Below are positions 3,060-53,324 of a DNA stretch of 64,000 bases, in pieces. A model generated the notes under the pieces. That model was not told where the DNA came from. It was given only the letters and a program-made list of their open reading frames with translations, and ran no database searches. The stretch is from IMG/VR virus record IMGVR_UViG_3300009128_001633, positions 1 to 64,000 of that record; one strand, given 5' to 3'. Positions within the stretch are counted from its first letter, which is position 1. Every line of letters begins with the position of its first letter. The position numbers and the translations under genes were made by a program. This DNA is from a virus.

Positions 3060-3232
3060 ATAATATAACATACAAAGCTTTTGAAATAATATGTGCAATA
3101 ATTATAATATATTTGATAATGTGCAATATTATGTTTTCATTTAATCATCCAAACTTAAATCAATTTCAGCTATTTAGACATCCAATAGAATTTCTTTTAT
3201 GGGATAGAGTGAATGGGGGGGAAAATGAATAA
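3056..3232 (+). CDS. Small membrane protein (58 aa, below the ORF-track cutoff)
   Basis: ATGA overlap; MNNITYKAFEIICAIIIIYLIMCNIMF... has one hydrophobic segment; fills the intergenic gap. Confidence 0.55.
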   Translation: MNNITYKAFEIICAIIIIYLIMCNIMFSFNHPNLNQFQLFRHPIEFLLWDRVNGGENE

Positions 3233-3521
3233 AAATATCTGGCAAGTATATTTATTAAAATGTTATAAAGATGGGACATATTATTGTGGCATAACCAATG
3301 AAATAGTTAGCAGACTACTAAGACATCATAATGGTACGGCTTCTAAATATACAAGAGGAAGAGGACCATTTAAACTTCTAGCAATAACTGGACTTATAAC
3401 AAGAAGCAGAGCACTTAAAATAGAACATCTTATAAAGAAAACTAAAAAGAAAAATAAAATAATGAAAATGATATTAATATCGAAAAAGATTGAAAGAGAA
3501 AGGATGGAAGATGAAAAATAA
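3225..3521 (+). CDS. GIY-YIG nuclease (UPF0213/YhbQ-like)
   Basis: WQVYLLKC..GTYYCGITN....RL..HHNG.ASKYTRGRGP...ALKIEHLIKK. Confidence 0.9.
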   Translation: MNKNIWQVYLLKCYKDGTYYCGITNEIVSRLLRHHNGTASKYTRGRGPFKLLAITGLITRSRALKIEHLIKKTKKKNKIMKMILISKKIERERMEDEK

Positions 3522-3716: not shown

Positions 3717-4343
3717 ATGAAAAAGAAACCATTGTTAGAAATATTTGATAACCTAAAATATCCAGAATGCTTCAGTGGGTTCTATTTATTAAGAACTGGA
3801 TGGATAGAACTAGATTTAGTGGCAAGATTAAAATGCTATCAATGCGGAATTTACAAAAGAGCAATATTATGTCCACCATATCTATGGCAAACATATTCTC
3901 AATTTAAAACATTTAAATCAACAAGAAAATTCATAGATAGTTTTGATTTCGTGGCTATTTTCATATGGAAAAATGATGGAACTAAATCATGGAAAATTAA
4001 CAAATCTGAACTAAGCCACGTGACTTTTAAAAAGAAAATGGGTAGAAGTCTAAAGGGTACAGAAAGTGGACAAGCAAGAGAAATAACTATGCTTATGAAA
4101 AAGTATAGAAGGGAGATTAAGAAAAATGGATATGATAACTTTTGTTTCATCCCCGGACATTGTGACTTATGTGGGCGTAAGTGTCCTAATCGCGACAACC
4201 CTCCTTGTAAGAGGAAAGGAATGCCTAGTATGGAATCTGTTGGGATTGATGTATATAAACTACTTGAAAAGATAGAAGTAGAATACGAATATCCTGTAAT
4301 TAATTATATGACTAATGTTACAATGATGTTAGTAAAGAGGTAG
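3717..4343 (+). CDS. DUF2284-family Cys-rich metal-binding protein
   Basis: RLKC..CG.Y.....CPP, G.CDLC...C......C and PSMESVGIDV motifs. Confidence 0.8.
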   Translation: MKKKPLLEIFDNLKYPECFSGFYLLRTGWIELDLVARLKCYQCGIYKRAILCPPYLWQTYSQFKTFKSTRKFIDSFDFVAIFIWKNDGTKSWKINKSELSHVTFKKKMGRSLKGTESGQAREITMLMKKYRREIKKNGYDNFCFIPGHCDLCGRKCPNRDNPPCKRKGMPSMESVGIDVYKLLEKIEVEYEYPVINYMTNVTMMLVKR

Positions 4344-4424: not shown

Positions 4425-4871
4425 ATGCCAAACGGACACAGAAAAAGACCATTGAGTGAATTCGGAAAACATGATTATGCAGATCATGGAACATCAAGCT
4501 GTAAATATGGATGCGGATGTTGGGCGGGGTCAACCATGTCAGGTGGTCCAGTCGGAATAGACCCATTCGGACAATGTCATGAAAATGTACCCGACGAGAG
4601 CCGTGACACAGACTATGAAGATCTCGTAAACGGACGTATTGATAAACTTGAATCTGAAGTGTATAGACTTAAAGAATTTGAAGAGATAGTTATCAAAAGT
4701 AGAGAAAATTCAAAGGTTAATTTAGTTCAGGAAAACAGCGAAATTAGATCAAAAATAAATAGGTTGTCACATTTTATACATAATACATTTAAAGAAATTG
4801 ATACACTTAGTGACAAACATGATAAACTAAGGAAGGAAATTATGGAGCATGAAGAAGACAACAGTGGTTAA
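4425..4871 (+). CDS. Hypothetical protein (Cys/His N-terminus plus coiled coil)
   Basis: AGGAGG RBS; CKYGCGC motif. Confidence 0.7.
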   Translation: MPNGHRKRPLSEFGKHDYADHGTSSCKYGCGCWAGSTMSGGPVGIDPFGQCHENVPDESRDTDYEDLVNGRIDKLESEVYRLKEFEEIVIKSRENSKVNLVQENSEIRSKINRLSHFIHNTFKEIDTLSDKHDKLRKEIMEHEEDNSG

Positions 4872-5151
4872 CTGTAAAAGAGAAGAATACGATATATTAA
4901 TAGATAGAAAAACACCATATGGTAATCCATTCGTAGTTGGAAAAGATGGAGATCGCAAAACAGTTATTAAAAAACACAAAGATTGGTTATCAGGTAAAAA
5001 ATTTAAGAAGTTCTTGCAAAAAAGAAGAAAATATGTCTTACAACGAATACCATTAATGCAAGGAGAACGCTTAGGATGATGGTGTGACCCATCGCCGTGT
5101 CACGGTGATACGTATGCTGAGTTAGCAGATGCATATAAGGAGAAGGAATAA
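4849..5151 (+). CDS. DUF4326-family protein with in-frame TGA (candidate selenocysteine) at 5077-5079
   Basis: N-terminal YDILIDR.TPYGNPF..GKDG.R is DUF4326-like. Reading through TGA gives LG*WCDPSPCHGDTYAELA, matching the family motif LGCWC.P..CHGD.L. TAA at 5149-5151 lies 2 nt before the next ATG. Confidence 0.75.
5091..5109 (+). promoter_or_regulatory. Candidate bacterial SECIS hairpin
   Basis: ATCGCCG-TGTCA-CGGTGAT stem-loop with a GU-containing loop, starting 11 nt after the TGA; GC-rich in an AT-rich genome. Confidence 0.6.
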
Positions 5152-5153
5152 AT

Positions 5154-5462
5154 ATGGATAATGGCAGAAGAGATTTTATAAAAACAATGGCACTAACAAT
5201 AGTTGGATCTACACTCATTGGTATAAGGTTTCCTGCTGAAGATTTCCTTTTAACGAAACCAAAATTTTTTGATAAATCTGTAAATATAGTCGCAATAAAT
5301 TTTGAATCTGGCATTCAACTACAGTTTTCTGTTGCTAGGAATGTATGTCCGATACTTGAATTAGAAGATGTTATAAAAGTAAACTGCAATCATGGTAGTC
5401 AACAATTAATTAAAAACCAATCTTTTACAATAACAAATATAGAGGAGATTAGTGATGCATAA
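5154..5462 (+). CDS. Small protein with twin-arginine (Tat)-like signal
   Basis: N-terminal GRRDFIK followed by a hydrophobic stretch. Confidence 0.6.
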   Translation: MDNGRRDFIKTMALTIVGSTLIGIRFPAEDFLLTKPKFFDKSVNIVAINFESGIQLQFSVARNVCPILELEDVIKVNCNHGSQQLIKNQSFTITNIEEISDA

Positions 5463-9146: not shown

Positions 9147-9155
9147 GAGAAACAT

Positions 9156-11840
9156 ATGAAGTCAAAGGAGATGAATAAGATAATACATGAAAATACAGAC
9201 ATAATAATAACTAAAATAAGTAAAAGAAAAGGAGATGAATTTGCATTAGCTAAATCAAGCATTGGAAATTTATTTATATACGATGCCAAATACACTTTTA
9301 GAGAATTAAAAGAAACCAACATACCAATCCATGTCTATAATAGCATTCCAGATGGAAGAATAAAAATAATTTTCATCTGGAATGCTAAACCATATCTAGT
9401 TAACATAGAAGACATTATAACAAAACCCAGAATAAATAGAAAATTAAAGTTAGCAATATTTCCAGTTCAACTTTCCCGTCTTAAACTCCTCAAAAAACAA
9501 GAACAACCAAAAAATCAAACCAAATTTATACACACGCATGTCCATACAGATCATAGTTTAATTGATGGAATCAGTACATGCATTTCTTATGTAAATAAAG
9601 CAAAAAACTTAGGAATGCCAGCAATAGCAATAACTGATCATGGTAATATTTCTGCACATCTATATTTGCAGTTAGAAGCAGAAAAATTAGGAATAAAACC
9701 AATATTTGGCGTAGAGGCATATGTTGTTCAAGATGCAACAATACACGATAGTGATCACAGATCTAACAACCATATAGTTTTATTAGCTAAGAATAAAACT
9801 GGATATAAAAACATTTTGACACTACAAAAACTATCTTGGTCCCCAGAAAACTTCTATTACAGACCAAGAATAGGTTATAAAACTCTCAAAAAATATCATA
9901 AAGGTTTAATTGCTTTAACTGCATGTATTAAAGGTTTGATGGGCTTAGACATCTTAAATGGAGAGCTCAGCGTGGCATATAGGACAGCCAAATGGTTAAA
10001 AAAAGTTTTTGGTGATGACCTATACTTGGAAATACAATTACATAATATATTTGATAATCAGGGTAATGATCTCCAAAAAATATATAACAAAGAGTTAATA
10101 AAAATGTCTAGAAAATTAGACATAGAACTTGTATTAACAAATGATGTGCATTATGCAGATAAGGGTATGCACAAAGTACAAGAAAAAGTAATTAAAATGA
10201 AAAGTGATTCTGATCTCGCGGATGCGTATTGTAGATCAATATGGTTTAAGAGTTTAAAAGAGTTAACAGAAACAAGAAAAAATGAGTGTAGTTATATAAA
10301 AATTCCAACATTCAAGAAAGCTGTCTCAAATACACTTAAAATAGCAGATAAATGTAATTATAAAATACCAACAGGAGGCCTTAGAATACCATCCATAGAC
10401 ATAAGTGAATTTCCTGGACATAAATCGTGGATGACCGAAGAAGATTATTTAACACATAGAATAAAAAAAGGAATAAGAAAAAGAGTAAAAGAAAACAAGA
10501 AAAAATTAACATCAGAATATAGTGAACGTATAAAAATAGAAATGAATGCATTTATTAAAATGAAAGTTATATCGTACATATTAATATATGATGATTTAGT
10601 ACGTTTTTTAAAGAAAAAAGGATGCCTCTGCTCATTAAGAGGTTCTGCAAATGGAAGCATTGTTCTATGGTTAATAGGATTGTCAATAGTTGATCCTATA
10701 AAGTTTAATATTTTGTTTGAAAGATTCATTAGCCCTGCAAGAATAGAGGCTGAAATGGCAGACATAGATATTGACCTTGATATTTCACATGAATATAGAG
10801 ATGTAGCTATTAACTATTTAAAAGAAAAATATGGCGAAGATCATATATGTATAGTTGGTACATTTGGTAGAACACAACTAAAAGCTTCTGTTAAAAACAT
10901 GGCAAGAGTTGAGGCAATTAAAATCAAGAAGCGTATTGATAAAACAAGAACAAAAACTAAAATTAAAAAACTAGAGAAAAAACTAGAACAATTCTCATAT
11001 AAAGAAATAAATAAAGTTACAAAACTTATGCCATTGGAATTTGATAAACTAAAAGATTCATCTGTATCTGATTGGTATAAAAAAAATAAAAAGTGGTTAA
11101 AGAAATACATAAAACCGATATTGGGCAACGTGTATTCAGAATCATTACATCCTGCCGGAATAGTAATTTCGCCAGAACCATATCATGAGTGGCTTCCTGT
11201 GAGAACAAACAAGCTTTCACAGGCAAAAGGTGGGCATAGGGTATTCGCCACACAATGGGAAAACTCACACACAAGTGTAGAACATCTAAATGAACGTGGT
11301 GTGATGGTTATGGATATATTAGGTGTGAAAACCTTAACAATCGTCGATGAAACTCTCAAACTAATAAAGAAAAGACACGGTGAGAAATTGAAGCTTGAAG
11401 CAATACCACTTAATAACAGAAAGACTTACAAAACATTATCAAAAGGTGAAAACCTTGGTATATTTCAACTGAGTGAAGGATTTTTAAAACCAATATTAAG
11501 ACAAACAAAACCAGACAATATAGAGGATATAATATTCATGGTTGCCGCAGATCGCCCAGGACCTATGGCATCCGGTGCGTTCGACCATTATGCAAAAAGA
11601 AAACATGGTAAGGAAAAAGTTAAGGTCCCACACCCATCTATGAAGATAGTGTTAAAAGATACTCTTGGTGTACTAACATACAGTGAACATGTTATGAGAA
11701 CAGCAACCTTTTTCGCAGGAATGGATCCAATTGATTCTGAAAAAATGAGGAAAGTTGTTAAGTCAAAAAATCCTGCAGATTTTATAAAATTTAAAGAAAA
11801 GTTTATTTCAGGAGCAATAAAAAAATGGACAAAAAAATAA
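9156..11840 (+). CDS. dnaE: DNA polymerase III alpha, N-terminal piece (PHP, palm, thumb, part of fingers)
   Basis: HTHVHTDHSLIDG, AITDHG, TNDVHY, RGSANGS, FERFISPAR, DIDID, HPAGIVIS, DILGVKTL, RPGPM; ends FISGAIKKWTKK*. Confidence 0.95.
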   Translation: MKSKEMNKIIHENTDIIITKISKRKGDEFALAKSSIGNLFIYDAKYTFRELKETNIPIHVYNSIPDGRIKIIFIWNAKPYLVNIEDIITKPRINRKLKLAIFPVQLSRLKLLKKQEQPKNQTKFIHTHVHTDHSLIDGISTCISYVNKAKNLGMPAIAITDHGNISAHLYLQLEAEKLGIKPIFGVEAYVVQDATIHDSDHRSNNHIVLLAKNKTGYKNILTLQKLSWSPENFYYRPRIGYKTLKKYHKGLIALTACIKGLMGLDILNGELSVAYRTAKWLKKVFGDDLYLEIQLHNIFDNQGNDLQKIYNKELIKMSRKLDIELVLTNDVHYADKGMHKVQEKVIKMKSDSDLADAYCRSIWFKSLKELTETRKNECSYIKIPTFKKAVSNTLKIADKCNYKIPTGGLRIPSIDISEFPGHKSWMTEEDYLTHRIKKGIRKRVKENKKKLTSEYSERIKIEMNAFIKMKVISYILIYDDLVRFLKKKGCLCSLRGSANGSIVLWLIGLSIVDPIKFNILFERFISPARIEAEMADIDIDLDISHEYRDVAINYLKEKYGEDHICIVGTFGRTQLKASVKNMARVEAIKIKKRIDKTRTKTKIKKLEKKLEQFSYKEINKVTKLMPLEFDKLKDSSVSDWYKKNKKWLKKYIKPILGNVYSESLHPAGIVISPEPYHEWLPVRTNKLSQAKGGHRVFATQWENSHTSVEHLNERGVMVMDILGVKTLTIVDETLKLIKKRHGEKLKLEAIPLNNRKTYKTLSKGENLGIFQLSEGFLKPILRQTKPDNIEDIIFMVAADRPGPMASGAFDHYAKRKHGKEKVKVPHPSMKIVLKDTLGVLTYSEHVMRTATFFAGMDPIDSEKMRKVVKSKNPADFIKFKEKFISGAIKKWTKK

Positions 11841-12724: not shown

Positions 12725-12823
12725 ATGGATCAAAATGGATATGGAACACCAGATGAAATAAGGAGGATTGCGGAAAGCGTATGGGAGGAAATGATGGGTT
12801 TCTCCAAATACGCTTTCCCGTAA
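12725..12823 (+). CDS. dnaE: DNA polymerase III alpha, 32-aa middle piece (not in the ORF track)
   Basis: AAGGAG RBS 7 nt upstream. MDQNGYGTPDEIRRIAESVWEEMMGFSKYAFP* is the otherwise missing NGY...A..IW..M..F..Y.F segment of DnaE. Confidence 0.85.
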   Translation: MDQNGYGTPDEIRRIAESVWEEMMGFSKYAFP

Positions 12824-12828
12824 AAAAA

Positions 12829-13680
12829 ATGAAAGCTCACGCCACATCTTACGCTATTCTAGCAAATGCAACACAATTCTTAAAAGTAAAGTATCCTATA
12901 GAATTTTTCTGTTCACATCTCCAACAAGCTGTTGATGAAAATTATAATCTAATCAAAAATGTTGCAAAAAGAAAATATGGTGTAAAATTTTATATGCCAG
13001 AGATAAATAAATCATCTGATAAGTTTACTATATATGACAATAAAATAGTATGGTCACTATCAAGTATGAAAGGAGTAGGCTTAAAAGCTGCAAAAGAAAT
13101 TATATCAAAGCAACCATTTACAAGCTTTCATGACTTCTTTGAAAGAATTAACAAAAGAATTGTCAATATAAAAGTTGTAAAAGTTCTAATAATAGCAAAT
13201 GTATTTAGGGAATTTGGAAAAAGAAACAGAATAGCAAAAATATATGGTAAACTTAGAAAAGACAAAGAATATCTAAAAATGACTAAAGAAGAATGGGAAT
13301 TAGAAGCAAGTAAGGTAATGACTTATTTCAAACAATCTGTAAGAGACTTATTTCCAACTAAAACAAAGTCTGCCATAACGTATGAAGAATTTTCAGAAGC
13401 AAAAATTGGGAAGAGGGTCATAGTAGCAGGAATAATAGAAAACTATCGTGAAATAAACAGTAAACGTGGTATGATGATTTTAATGAAAGTCTCTGACTCT
13501 GGAGAAAATTTTGCAATTGTTTGTTGGAACAATTTTTATAATAGACTATCTGAAAACGGAATAAAATTAGATAATGGATTAGCAGTAAGGGTTTCTGGTT
13601 ATAAAAACCTCTCTAACTTAGAAGAAGAACAAATAACACTTGGCAGAGAATCAGGTGCATATGTGAAAGTATTAACATAA
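12829..13680 (+). CDS. dnaE: DNA polymerase III alpha, C-terminal piece (fingers end, HhH, OB fold)
   Basis: MKAHATSYAIL...FLKVKYPIEFF, PEINKS, LSSMKGVG, PFTSFHDF, OB fold VIVAGII. Confidence 0.92.
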   Translation: MKAHATSYAILANATQFLKVKYPIEFFCSHLQQAVDENYNLIKNVAKRKYGVKFYMPEINKSSDKFTIYDNKIVWSLSSMKGVGLKAAKEIISKQPFTSFHDFFERINKRIVNIKVVKVLIIANVFREFGKRNRIAKIYGKLRKDKEYLKMTKEEWELEASKVMTYFKQSVRDLFPTKTKSAITYEEFSEAKIGKRVIVAGIIENYREINSKRGMMILMKVSDSGENFAIVCWNNFYNRLSENGIKLDNGLAVRVSGYKNLSNLEEEQITLGRESGAYVKVLT

Positions 13681-52186: not shown

Positions 52187-53308
52187 TCATACCTCCATAA
52201 TCTTAATTATGTCACTAACCATACTATCTAATTGATAATCTCTTAAATGAGAAAACTTCTCCTCATAAGCATGTTCACCAACTTTCTTGACACTATGGTT
52301 GAATAATTCTTTATTTTTTAAGTAACTATATAACTCTTTGTGACTTTCTGATTTAAGGGAGACCTCTCTCTTTAACGCTTCCTCTAAACCATCACAAAAC
52401 TTTTGCCAACTAAACTGTTTAATTTTTACCAATCCAGATCTAGAAAGAATTACTCTAAGTTCACCATTATTTTTCAAAATACTATAAAACCTAGCTATTG
52501 TTTCTGGATTTACGTCAGGAATAACTAACGCTGTCTCATTGTTTATGGCAAAATTAGTAGTTCCAGCACTTGTACAAATAACTGGAGTTCCACACGCCAT
52601 CGCTTCAGCAGCAGTATTACACCATCCAGCAAGACCTTCGGCACTTATGAAAATATCAGCTTTACTATACATTTCCCTTAAACTATCTTGCGGTGGATTA
52701 ACGTAATGTTCTATTTCTAATGGTGTGTCATACTTCCATTTCTGTACATCATATAGCATTAATACTGGTGGATCTTTAACTAATTCTAATGCCTTAACGA
52801 TATTACCAGTATTTTTCCATCCACGATCAAACTTTGCATAAATAAGAACTCTAAATTTATCATCTTTCTCAACTTCAACAGGATAAAATTGCTCAAGATT
52901 CACACCACCACTTATTGTATAACCTTTATTATTGAACTTTTGTGGAAACCTTTTCTCCCAACCATTTGAAACACCTATTAATATATAATCACTTTTAATA
53001 TCATATGTACCAATACCATACCTTCTTGTATATGGAAAAATAATAAAAACAAATTTCTTTTGAGCATTGCATCTATCAAATATATCTAATGAAGGTGCAT
53101 CACCACACATAAGCACTTCATGTTTAACACTATGTACATTTTCAATTGGTGACAATTTACCATTATATTTAAACCAATCTGGAGGAGAACCATCACTGTG
53201 ATATATTGTATAATCATATCCCCTGATAACCATCTCATTACCTATCTCAAGAAATCTCTTAACTCCTCCGTATAATTTCAAATGTGGTAATATAACGCTT
53301 ATTTTCAT
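52187..53308 (-). CDS. Glycosyltransferase (GT4)
   Basis: LPHL..YGGVK, YSKADIF, AEAMACGTPVI, FSW. Confidence 0.9.
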   Translation of the reverse strand: MKISVILPHLKLYGGVKRFLEIGNEMVIRGYDYTIYHSDGSPPDWFKYNGKLSPIENVHSVKHEVLMCGDAPSLDIFDRCNAQKKFVFIIFPYTRRYGIGTYDIKSDYILIGVSNGWEKRFPQKFNNKGYTISGGVNLEQFYPVEVEKDDKFRVLIYAKFDRGWKNTGNIVKALELVKDPPVLMLYDVQKWKYDTPLEIEHYVNPPQDSLREMYSKADIFISAEGLAGWCNTAAEAMACGTPVICTSAGTTNFAINNETALVIPDVNPETIARFYSILKNNGELRVILSRSGLVKIKQFSWQKFCDGLEEALKREVSLKSESHKELYSYLKNKELFNHSVKKVGEHAYEEKFSHLRDYQLDSMVSDIIKIMEV

Positions 53309-53324
53309 TTTGCCCTCCTAAGAA

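What the first reader, a model, noticed from the sequence alone, without database searches (positions are those of the whole stretch)
4849..5151. Candidate phage-encoded selenoprotein: UGA at a conserved Cys with a SECIS-like hairpin
Seen: the DUF4326 ORF stops at TGA 5077-5079, yet the frame continues WCDPSPCHGDTYAELADAYKEKE* and ends 2 nt before the next ATG. The TGA occupies the first Cys of the family motif LGCWC.P..CHGD. Exactly 11 nt downstream is a GC-rich stem-loop, ATCGCCG-TGTCA-CGGTGAT, built from codons that are rare here (TCG CCG CAC). Established: bacterial SelB binds a hairpin with a G/GU-containing loop about 11 nt after UGA (E. coli fdhF), and Cys/Sec pairing is the standard selenoprotein signature. 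Inference: the phage uses host Sec machinery to make a U-x-C protein, implying a Sec-using host.
Basis: partly seen in the sequence, partly recalled or inferred. Interest (0 to 1): 0.88.

Follow-up and report, generated by a model that had tools for sequence, protein, structure and literature searches.

The report
Probable selenocysteine codon in phage DUF4326
A small accessory gene of an uncultured marine phage has a UGA "stop" where all relatives have an invariant cysteine, followed by the kind of RNA hairpin bacteria use to insert selenocysteine; a few distant relatives share this pairing, so it is probably a selenoprotein, which I found published for no bacteriophage.

Summary
ORF 4849-5079 ends in TGA, and the same frame runs on to TAA 5149-5151. 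Read through, it is a full DUF4326 domain (Pfam E = 2e-23). The TGA sits on Cys77, which is invariant in 152 of 152 homologues. An 8-bp hairpin with a GUC loop (5091-5109, -8.9 kcal/mol) starts 11 nt after the UGA and is built from codons rare in this genome.

TGA is otherwise a normal stop here, and contigs from several assemblies carry it. Pattern scans found the same TGA in five other full-length DUF4326 genes that are only 30-51% identical to this one. With one statistic or another, three or four of these five fold into a hairpin that puts G23/U24 in the loop.

About 120 cysteine-bearing controls almost never do this (2 of 122; Fisher p = 3e-4 with this window left out). Synonymous resampling gives p = 0.005-0.025 for four of the six UGA genes; no control scores at or below 0.01.

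Against:
- The host is unknown.
- One sister contig has Cys79Tyr.
- About 4% of control copies are pseudogenes.
- Two UGA genes lack a convincing hairpin.

Verdict: selenocysteine recoding about 0.65, recent nonsense pseudogene about 0.25. This scan has already noted the same DUF4326 pairing on other DNA.

The parts
4849..5076 (+). N-terminal 76 codons of the DUF4326 gene, from the ATG to Gly76
   Evidence: ORF list. Pfam PF14216 and phrog_464 match across the whole read-through. The family invariants R20, G25 and N26 are intact.
5077..5079 (+). In-frame UGA at the invariant Cys77 position; candidate selenocysteine codon
   Evidence: Cys in 152/152 homologues. Carried unchanged by contigs of two runs and by other assemblies' gene calls. 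The same UGA is in L002, L005, L008, L009 and L010.
5080..5151 (+). C-terminal 23 codons (WCDPSPCHGD...) and the true stop TAA 5149-5151
   Evidence: The frame is open and keeps the invariants C79, P81, C84, H85, G86 and D87. The AlphaFold model places the loop at 78-85 and a helix at 86-99.
5091..5109 (+). SECIS-like hairpin. The 5' arm is 5091-5098, the GUC loop 5099-5101 and the 3' arm 5102-5109. G5099 and U5100 are positions 23 and 24 counted from U1 of the UGA.
   Evidence: -8.9 kcal/mol. Rare among genomic TGA sites (0.5%) and among synonymous re-codings (0.7-2.5%). The same register is kept in L009 and L008, with two compensatory pairs.
5137..5462 (+). Shine-Dalgarno AAGGAG (5137-5142, inside the read-through part) and the next gene (ATG 5154, 102 aa, no known family)
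   Evidence: Sequence and ORF list. No Pfam or PHROG hit. The layout is typical of tightly packed, coupled phage genes if translation runs to 5151.

Best explanation
The gene 4849-5151 encodes a 100-residue DUF4326 enzyme whose codon 77, UGA, is read as selenocysteine by the host's SelB/tRNA-Sec system.

The proposed mechanism has four steps:
- The hairpin at 5091-5109 lies inside the coding sequence, 11 nt after the UGA.
- It shows G23 and U24 in its apical loop, the geometry of the E. coli fdhF SECIS (own knowledge).
- It would tether SelB-GTP-Sec-tRNA(Sec) at the ribosome, so that UGA is decoded instead of causing termination.
- Translation then continues through the invariant W-C-x-P-x-x-C-H-G-D loop to TAA 5149, just before the next gene.

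Sec77 replaces the invariant cysteine at the end of a beta-strand, which leads into a loop and a helix. This layout resembles the nucleophile position of cysteine phosphatases and rhodaneses. Iyer and co-workers assign DUF4326 to that superfamily and propose that it removes terminal phosphates from ADP-ribose derivatives in phage-host conflicts (PMC9503650).

Shown here:
- the UGA, the open and conserved downstream frame, and the hairpin;
- the hairpin's statistical excess;
- its co-occurrence with UGA in other lineages.

Inferred:
- SelB dependence;
- a selenocysteine-competent host;
- a catalytic role for residue 77;
- the enzyme's substrate.
For: 1. The UGA sits on a residue that is Cys in 152/152 homologues. 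All other family invariants on both sides are intact, and there is no second lesion.

2. TGA is a normal stop for many genes of this phage, and the record has no tRNA. A reassigned genetic code is therefore excluded.

3. The hairpin:
- -8.9 kcal/mol, starting 11 nt after the UGA, with a GUC loop;
- found at only 0.5% of genomic TGA sites;
- reached by 0.7-1% of synonymous re-codings and 2.5% with a generic MFE statistic;
- built from rare codons.

4. Recurrence. The same UGA is in five other full-length DUF4326 genes, 30-51% identical to this one. Their contigs range from 26 to 66% G+C. TGA is an ordinary stop in L002 and L009.

5. Association of UGA with the hairpin:
- A hairpin with G23/U24 in its loop and dG <= -6 occurs in 3/5 other UGA genes against 2/122 Cys controls (Fisher p = 3e-4).
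- An in-register 8-bp stem occurs in WIN, L008 and L009 against 0/121 controls.
- Nine Cys genes with the same PxPCHGDT peptide have at most 5 bp.
- Per-locus synonymous resampling gives L002 0.005, L008 0.010 and L009 0.012. None of 119 controls is <= 0.01. The combined p without this window is 3e-4.
- A generic MFE version gives a combined p of 0.002.

6. In WIN, L009 and L008, 24/24 pair cells of the helix are paired. Two pairs change on both sides.

7. The TGA is present in contigs of two runs and in further JGI and ENA contigs.

8. The AlphaFold model (pLDDT 96) puts residue 77 at a strand end before a loop and a helix. Weak structural matches to dual-specificity phosphatases fit a nucleophile position.

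9. The one bacterial genome found with a TGA-bearing remnant of the domain has tRNA-Sec and SelB.
Against: - The host is unknown. Neither this phage record (CheckV 69% complete) nor L002's record has tRNA-Sec or SelB, so a selenocysteine-competent host is an assumption.
- A near-identical sister contig keeps the TGA but has Tyr at the invariant Cys79 (P0007). This is what relaxed selection on a dead gene would give. It could also be a low-coverage error.
- Pseudogenes are not rare in this family. Four or five of 121 Cys-bearing control copies are broken or are remnants. Two TGA-bearing hits are remnants (L132, L004).
- TGA also occurs once at Cys79 (L003).
- Short database proteins also end just before Trp46 and Trp78. 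Counts of TGA alone therefore do not separate selenocysteine from nonsense mutations.
- L005 has no specific hairpin and L010 only a weak one.
- The sample of UGA genes is small (six), and the hairpin statistics were designed after seeing this window.
- A 66-nt fold is not unusual against dinucleotide shuffles.
- The gene is an accessory insertion, absent from the one related phage found. The G+C-rich codons could therefore partly be a legacy of horizontal transfer.
Confidence: 0.65

Rival explanations
1. Recent nonsense pseudogene. A single TGT/TGC-to-TGA mutation killed an accessory gene. The downstream frame is intact only because too little time has passed, and the hairpin is a coincidence of the self-complementary P-C-H-G codons.
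For: - Cys79Tyr in a sister contig that also has the TGA.
- A pseudogene rate of about 4% among control copies, one of them with a single in-frame stop.
- TGA-bearing remnants L132 and L004.
- TGA also at Cys79 in L003.
- The gene is dispensable in the relative L142.
- L005 has no hairpin.
Against: - It does not explain why the hairpin is made of codons used 4-16% of the time.
- It does not explain why UGA genes from five other lineages are enriched for such hairpins, while about 120 Cys genes are not. The controls include genes with the same peptide.
- All six full-length UGA genes carry exactly one lesion, always at the same codon, with every invariant residue kept. Most control pseudogenes have several lesions.
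Confidence: 0.25
2. Leaky termination without selenocysteine. UGA is occasionally read by a near-cognate tRNA (Trp or Cys), perhaps helped by the hairpin. The result is mostly a 76-aa fragment and a little full-length protein.
For: UGA is the leakiest stop in bacteria (own knowledge). The frame continues, and a structure follows the stop.
Against: - Trp at an invariant Cys (152/152) would give a dead enzyme.
- Nothing explains why the stop should sit on a Cys codon in six lineages.
- The hairpin geometry is that of SelB sites, not of known bacterial read-through stimulators (own knowledge).
Confidence: 0.05
3. True termination. The 76-residue N-terminal fragment is the functional product, and 5080-5151 is a non-coding spacer.
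For: Gene callers using table 11 call the 76-aa ORF (P0005).
Against: - The fragment lacks all four invariant motif residues (C77, C79, C84, H85).
- It lacks the last helix of a compact single-domain fold.
- The 'spacer' encodes the family motif in frame and ends 2 nt before the next gene.
Confidence: 0.03
4. Alternative genetic code (TGA = Trp or Gly) in this phage, or a sequencing error.
For: Some pipelines translated the gene with code 4 (W at position 77: P0002 and P0007).
Against: - Many well-supported genes of the window end in TGA, several in ATGA overlaps.
- The record has no suppressor tRNA.
- Neither Trp nor Gly fits an invariant Cys.
- The TGA is seen in several assemblies.
Confidence: 0.02

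Closest known systems
Bacterial selenoprotein genes with an in-ORF SECIS read by SelB (prototype: E. coli fdhF)
   Same: An in-frame UGA aligned with Cys in homologues. A hairpin lies inside the coding sequence and starts 11 nt after the UGA. G and U sit at positions 23 and 24 in the apical loop, which lies within the 16-37 nt UGA-to-loop range of the bSECIS consensus. The fdhF geometry and the consensus figures are own knowledge; the measurements are.
   Different: The gene is carried by a phage, which brings none of the machinery. The protein family (DUF4326) is not, as far as I could find, a described selenoprotein family. The stem is a plain 8-bp helix without the bulged U of fdhF. No SelB binding or selenium incorporation is shown.
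Poxvirus glutathione peroxidases (molluscum contagiosum, fowlpox), the known viral selenoproteins (PMC8310308)
   Same: A virus-encoded gene that depends on the host's selenocysteine machinery. In fowlpox the SECIS also lies in the coding region.
   Different: Those are eukaryotic viruses with eukaryotic SECIS/SBP2-type elements, and the genes were captured from the host. Here the element is bacterial-type, in a bacteriophage, in a family typical of phages.
Cys-containing DUF4326 (PF14216) proteins of phages and giant viruses
   Same: The same domain (E = 2e-23), the same invariant R20, G25, N26, C79, P81, C84 and H85, and the same predicted fold. Iyer et al. propose a rhodanese-phosphatase-like enzyme acting on ADP-ribose derivatives (PMC9503650).
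   Different: Residue 77 is encoded by UGA instead of TGY, and the following codons form a hairpin that Cys-bearing members lack.
Stop-codon reassignment in phages (TGA = Trp, TAG = Gln)
   Same: An in-frame stop codon inside a phage gene that must be read through.
   Different: Reassignment affects many genes and usually comes with suppressor tRNAs. Here a single codon in a single gene is affected. TGA ends many other genes and no tRNA is present.

Membership tests
Bacterial SelB/SECIS-type selenoprotein gene | In-frame UGA aligned with Cys in homologues (Sec/Cys pair) | tested here: met
   Cys in 152/152 homologues at the UGA position.
Bacterial SelB/SECIS-type selenoprotein gene | Open reading frame continues after the UGA with conserved sequence | tested here: met
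   23 further codons hold C79, P81, C84, H85, G86 and D87. The Pfam match spans the UGA.
Bacterial SelB/SECIS-type selenoprotein gene | Hairpin just downstream, with the apical loop 16-37 nt from the UGA and G in the first two loop bases (bSECIS consensus, own knowledge) | tested here: met
   8-bp stem, GUC loop starting 19 nt after the UGA, -8.9 kcal/mol. It exceeds 99% of synonymous re-codings. bSECISearch itself was not available.
Bacterial SelB/SECIS-type selenoprotein gene | UGA and hairpin kept together in independent homologues | tested here: met
   Five other full-length UGA genes. Three have a hairpin at dG <= -6, against 2/122 Cys controls. Resampling confirms this. Two (L005, L010) lack a convincing one, and the sample is small.
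Bacterial SelB/SECIS-type selenoprotein gene | Host possesses selA, selB, selC (tRNA-Sec) and selD | not testable with these tools
   The host is unknown and no close cultured relative exists. The phage records hold no tRNA-Sec or SelB. Only the Clostridiales MAG that holds remnant L132 could be tested; it has both.
Bacterial SelB/SECIS-type selenoprotein gene | Selenium is incorporated at the UGA, dependent on SelB | not testable with these tools
   This needs 75Se labelling, mass spectrometry or reporter assays.
DUF4326 (Pfam PF14216) | Match to the family profile above the curated cut-off | tested here: met
   83.3 bits against a cut-off of 25, E = 2e-23, profile positions 3-79 of 82, with C placed at the UGA. 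phrog_464 gives 9e-28.
DUF4326 (Pfam PF14216) | Invariant C-x-C-x-P-x-x-C-H motif | tested here: inconclusive
   All motif residues are present except the first Cys, which is UGA. The feature is met only if UGA is read as Sec or Cys.
Rhodanese / Cys-phosphatase superfamily (assignment of DUF4326 by PMC9503650) | Strand, active-site loop and helix, with the nucleophilic Cys at the strand end; fold similarity to known members | tested here: inconclusive
   The model has strand 74-77, loop 78-85 and helix 86-99. Foldseek finds nothing. VIA-align gives the RapZ C-terminal domain at Z = 5.5 and many dual-specificity phosphatases at only Z = 2.0-2.6.
Phage with reassigned TGA (code 4 or 25) | TGA is not used as a stop, there are many in-frame TGAs, and a suppressor tRNA is present | tested here: not met
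   Many genes end in TGA, there are no tRNAs, and the record has no other read-through candidate.
Decaying pseudogene | Additional lesions (frameshifts, further stops, loss of invariant residues) | tested here: inconclusive
   There are none in this window's copy. Sister contig P0007 has Cys79Tyr.

The most novel reading that the evidence does not exclude
DUF4326 includes a scattered set of phage-borne selenoenzymes. Phages of selenocysteine-competent hosts have repeatedly swapped the invariant first cysteine for UGA-encoded selenocysteine and evolved an in-ORF SECIS from the codons of the P-x-x-C-H-G-D motif. They thereby hijack host SelB to make a more reactive nucleophile, for an enzyme that probably acts on ADP-ribose-derived signals in counter-defence. 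These would be the first selenoproteins of bacteriophages and a new selenoprotein family.
Probability: 0.6. Interest if true: 0.85.

Novelty: new variant of a known kind. Interest (0 to 1): 0.75.

Why it matters
Selenocysteine insertion is known from cells and from two poxviruses. My searches of the held literature found no bacteriophage selenoprotein and no mention of DUF4326 as a selenoprotein family.

If this reading is true, four things follow:
- Phages can exploit their host's SelB/SECIS recoding system for their own accessory genes.
- The presence of such a gene becomes a host marker, because the host must be selenocysteine-competent.
- The first cysteine of the DUF4326 motif is singled out as the chemically critical residue of an uncharacterised enzyme implicated in NAD/ADP-ribose conflicts.
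- Gene callers systematically truncate such genes. Here they produced a 76-aa call, or a code-4 call with Trp.

The claim can be tested directly with a reporter fusion and 75Se labelling.

Tried and rejected
The DNA of P0007, P0003, P0339, P0350 and P0364 could therefore not be read.
- Close relatives of the gene: the search for related loci with the protein gave only one distant Cys homologue in viral contigs (L001) and nothing in metagenome contigs. Blastn of the region against cultured phages gave no match.
- Host inference: the DnaE-like polymerase has no relative above 32% identity among cultured phages. The genome search does not draw relatives for virus records.
- RNA evidence: no RNA holder was listed among the sequencing runs. 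All runs laid were contigs.
- Rfam has no match on the hairpin.
- PDB: no hit by sequence or by Foldseek.
- Counting approach:
  - Scans for TGA at Cys79 and Cys84 in viral contigs gave 1 and 0 hits, against 1 (plus this genome) at Cys77. These numbers are too small to discriminate.
  - A broader TGA-77 pattern added nothing.
- A survey of short database proteins for a spike of ORF ends at Gly76 was inconclusive. Ends also cluster before Trp46 and Trp78, which could reflect code-4 phages or nonsense mutations. The listing of near-length hits showed only full-length proteins.
- L006, L007 and L131 were rejected as chance matches of the motif pattern. L004 and L132 were rejected as remnants.
- The genome-wide search for other TGA read-through candidates in this phage found none.

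Full report
**What is there**

The window comes from a 95,856-bp IMG/VR virus record that is linear, 69% complete by CheckV and 33% G+C. The source is marine metagenomes. It is a tailed phage: it has a tail fibre J homologue, a DnaE-type polymerase in pieces, a thymidylate-synthase-like enzyme, UvsX and SbcCD.

The anatomy of the finding, on the + strand:
- an ORF from ATG 4849 ends at TGA 5077-5079 (76 aa);
- the same frame continues for 23 codons to TAA 5149-5151;
- the next gene starts at 5154, and its AAGGAG lies at 5137-5142, inside the extension.

Read through, the 100-residue product is a complete DUF4326 domain (Pfam 83 bits, E = 2e-23, profile 3-79 of 82; phrog_464, 9e-28).

**Position of the stop**

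The 150 best of 6,295 homologues came from a search of 1.84 billion representatives. In them, together with two homologues from the first protein search, the residue aligned with the UGA is Cys in 152/152. Cys79, Cys84 and His85 are equally invariant.

An AlphaFold model (pLDDT 96) puts residue 77 at the end of strand 74-77, followed by loop 78-85 and helix 86-99. This is the layout of the nucleophile in cysteine phosphatases and rhodaneses, the superfamily to which Iyer et al. assign DUF4326 (PMC9503650).

Structural matches are weak. The RapZ C-terminal domain scores Z = 5.5, many dual-specificity phosphatases score Z = 2.0-2.6, and Foldseek finds nothing. The catalytic role is therefore an inference.

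**Trivial explanations**

- Genetic code: TGA ends many solid genes of the window, several in ATGA overlaps. The record has no tRNA and no other read-through candidate. A reassigned code is out.
- Sequencing error: Logan contigs of two runs of one marine study carry the TGA without any difference. The 90% protein cluster contains table-11 calls of 76 aa on three contigs. It also holds two 100-aa calls with Trp at position 77, meaning the TGA was read with code 4, from Logan and ENA contigs. The TGA is real DNA.

**The hairpin**

The hairpin is AUCGCCGU-GUC-ACGGUGAU at 5091-5109. It starts 11 nt after the UGA and has -8.9 kcal/mol. Counted from U1 of the UGA, loop bases G23 and U24 fall where the SelB-contacting G23/U24 of E. 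coli fdhF lie (own knowledge).

How unusual it is:
- Only 0.5% of the 3,800 TGA triplets of the genome have a comparable hairpin.
- The stem uses TCG (4.3% of Ser), CCG (10.9% of Pro) and CAC (16.4% of His). The flanking GAC and ACG codons are rare too.
- Re-coding the same peptide with the genome's codon usage reaches this energy in 0.7-1% of trials, or 2.5% with a generic MFE statistic.
- A plain 66-nt fold against dinucleotide shuffles is unremarkable (z = -0.7).

**Relatives with the same UGA**

I scanned for TGA-Trp-Cys-x-Pro-x-x-Cys-His-Gly-Asp as a DNA pattern. This gave one hit in viral contigs (L002), seven in metagenome contigs and two in genome contigs.

A family HMM read across the stop sorts the hits:
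- Full-length domains: L002, L005, L008, L009 and L010 (L010 is cut by its contig end).
- C-terminal remnants: L004 and L132.
- Chance matches: L006, L007 and L131.

The five full-length genes are 30-51% identical to this one, and 25-59% to each other. Their contigs range from 26 to 66% G+C. TGA is an ordinary stop in L002 and L009. Each has exactly one lesion, at the same codon, and keeps every invariant residue.

**The hairpin travels with the UGA**

Controls were 121 Cys-bearing sites matching the same pattern (L011-L130). A further nine were Cys genes with the same PxPCHGDT peptide as this window (L133-L141).

| Test | UGA genes | Cys controls |
|---|---|---|
| In-register 8-bp stem with GUC loop | WIN, L008, L009 | 0/121; longest stem 6 bp, or 5 bp in the same-peptide subclade |
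| Bulge-free hairpin with G23/U24 in the loop, dG <= -6 (this window excluded) | 3/5 | 2/122 (Fisher p = 3e-4; Mann-Whitney p = 0.0015) |
| Synonymous resampling with each locus's own codon usage | WIN 0.010, L002 0.005, L008 0.010, L009 0.012, L005 1.0 | none of 119 <= 0.01; 2.5% <= 0.05 |
| Generic RNAfold MFE over codons 80-91 | 0.015-0.025 for the same four; 0.23 (L005) and 0.49 (L010) | 3.3% of 120 <= 0.05 |

Combining the resampling p-values without this window gives 3e-4. The generic MFE version gives a combined p of 0.002.

In WIN, L009 and L008 all 24 pair cells of the helix are paired. Two pairs change on both sides (A-U/G-C and G-C/A-U). With three sequences this is only suggestive.

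**What speaks against selenocysteine**

- The host is unknown. There is no close cultured relative, and the phage records carry no tRNA-Sec or SelB.
- The sister contig behind P0007 keeps the TGA but has Tyr at invariant Cys79. That is what a dead gene would accumulate, though a low-coverage error is possible.
- Four or five of the 121 control copies are themselves broken or are remnants.
- TGA occurs once at Cys79 (L003). Short database ORFs also end before Trp46 and Trp78.
- No denominator could be obtained for the scans. Counts alone cannot reject recurrent nonsense mutation.
- L005 has no specific hairpin and L010 only a weak one.
- The gene is an accessory insertion. The one related phage found (L142, 45-58% identity in the neighbouring genes) lacks it. 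Some G+C-rich codons could therefore be a transfer legacy. Against that, the first 228 nt of the gene are fully AT-adapted.

**Other points**

The only bacterial genome with a TGA-bearing piece of the domain is a Clostridiales MAG (L132). It has tRNA-Sec (71.7 bits) and a SelB. This is consistent with the reading but weak.

In the literature I could search, the only known viral selenoproteins are poxvirus glutathione peroxidases (PMC8310308). I found no paper on a phage selenoprotein, or on DUF4326 as a selenoprotein family.

This scan has already noted the same DUF4326 UGA-plus-hairpin pairing on other genomes (e1-5876228, e1-5857729, e1-5696569). Those notes are leads and may draw on the same database sequences. 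I did not count them as independent evidence.

**Verdict**

- The best explanation is SelB/SECIS-type selenocysteine insertion at codon 77 of a phage DUF4326 enzyme (about 0.65).
- The main rival is a young nonsense pseudogene (about 0.25).
- The mechanism would be a known one in a new setting and a new protein family: a new variant of a known kind.

Noticed in passing
window 9147-11840 and 12757-13680 (+): The DnaE-type replicative polymerase (phrog_405) is encoded in at least two separate ORFs, with other small ORFs in between.
   Followed up: partly
L003 3765-4001 (-), IMGVR_UViG_3300001335_000513: Another phage DUF4326 gene has its in-frame TGA at the second invariant cysteine (Cys79...LGCW*KPLPCHGD...). 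The frame after it is intact. Only a weak hairpin (6 bp, -4.5 kcal/mol) follows, closer to the stop than the usual SECIS distance. It could be a C-x-U variant or a pseudogene.
   Followed up: partly
proteins P0343, P0342, P0368, P0361, P0387; P0297, P0302, P0345: Short DUF4326 ORFs in the protein database end just before the conserved Trp46 (five cases) or just before Trp78 (three cases). This suggests either phages that read TGA as Trp but were called with table 11, or nonsense mutations at TGG.
   Followed up: no
L132 5150-5350 (-), Clostridiales MAG DAHXNH010000116.1: Only the C-terminal third of a DUF4326 domain is present, with TGA at the Cys77 position, in a bacterial MAG that has tRNA-Sec and SelB. 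It may be a relic of a selenocysteine-bearing copy.
   Followed up: partly
window 3213-3521 and 3717-4343 (+); L142: A GIY-YIG-like small ORF and a DUF2284 metal-binding protein lie upstream. This block is syntenic with the related phage contig L142 (45-58% identity). L142 lacks the DUF4326 gene and its two flanking small ORFs (4425-4871 and 5154-5462), so the three look like one inserted accessory cassette.
   Followed up: partly
window 26159-53317 (-): A long run of co-oriented minus-strand genes. Few of those I scanned match a PHROG family: one has a glycosyltransferase hit, at 52187-53317, and three match families of unknown function. Earlier notes of this scan describe a large glycan-building island here.
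   Followed up: no
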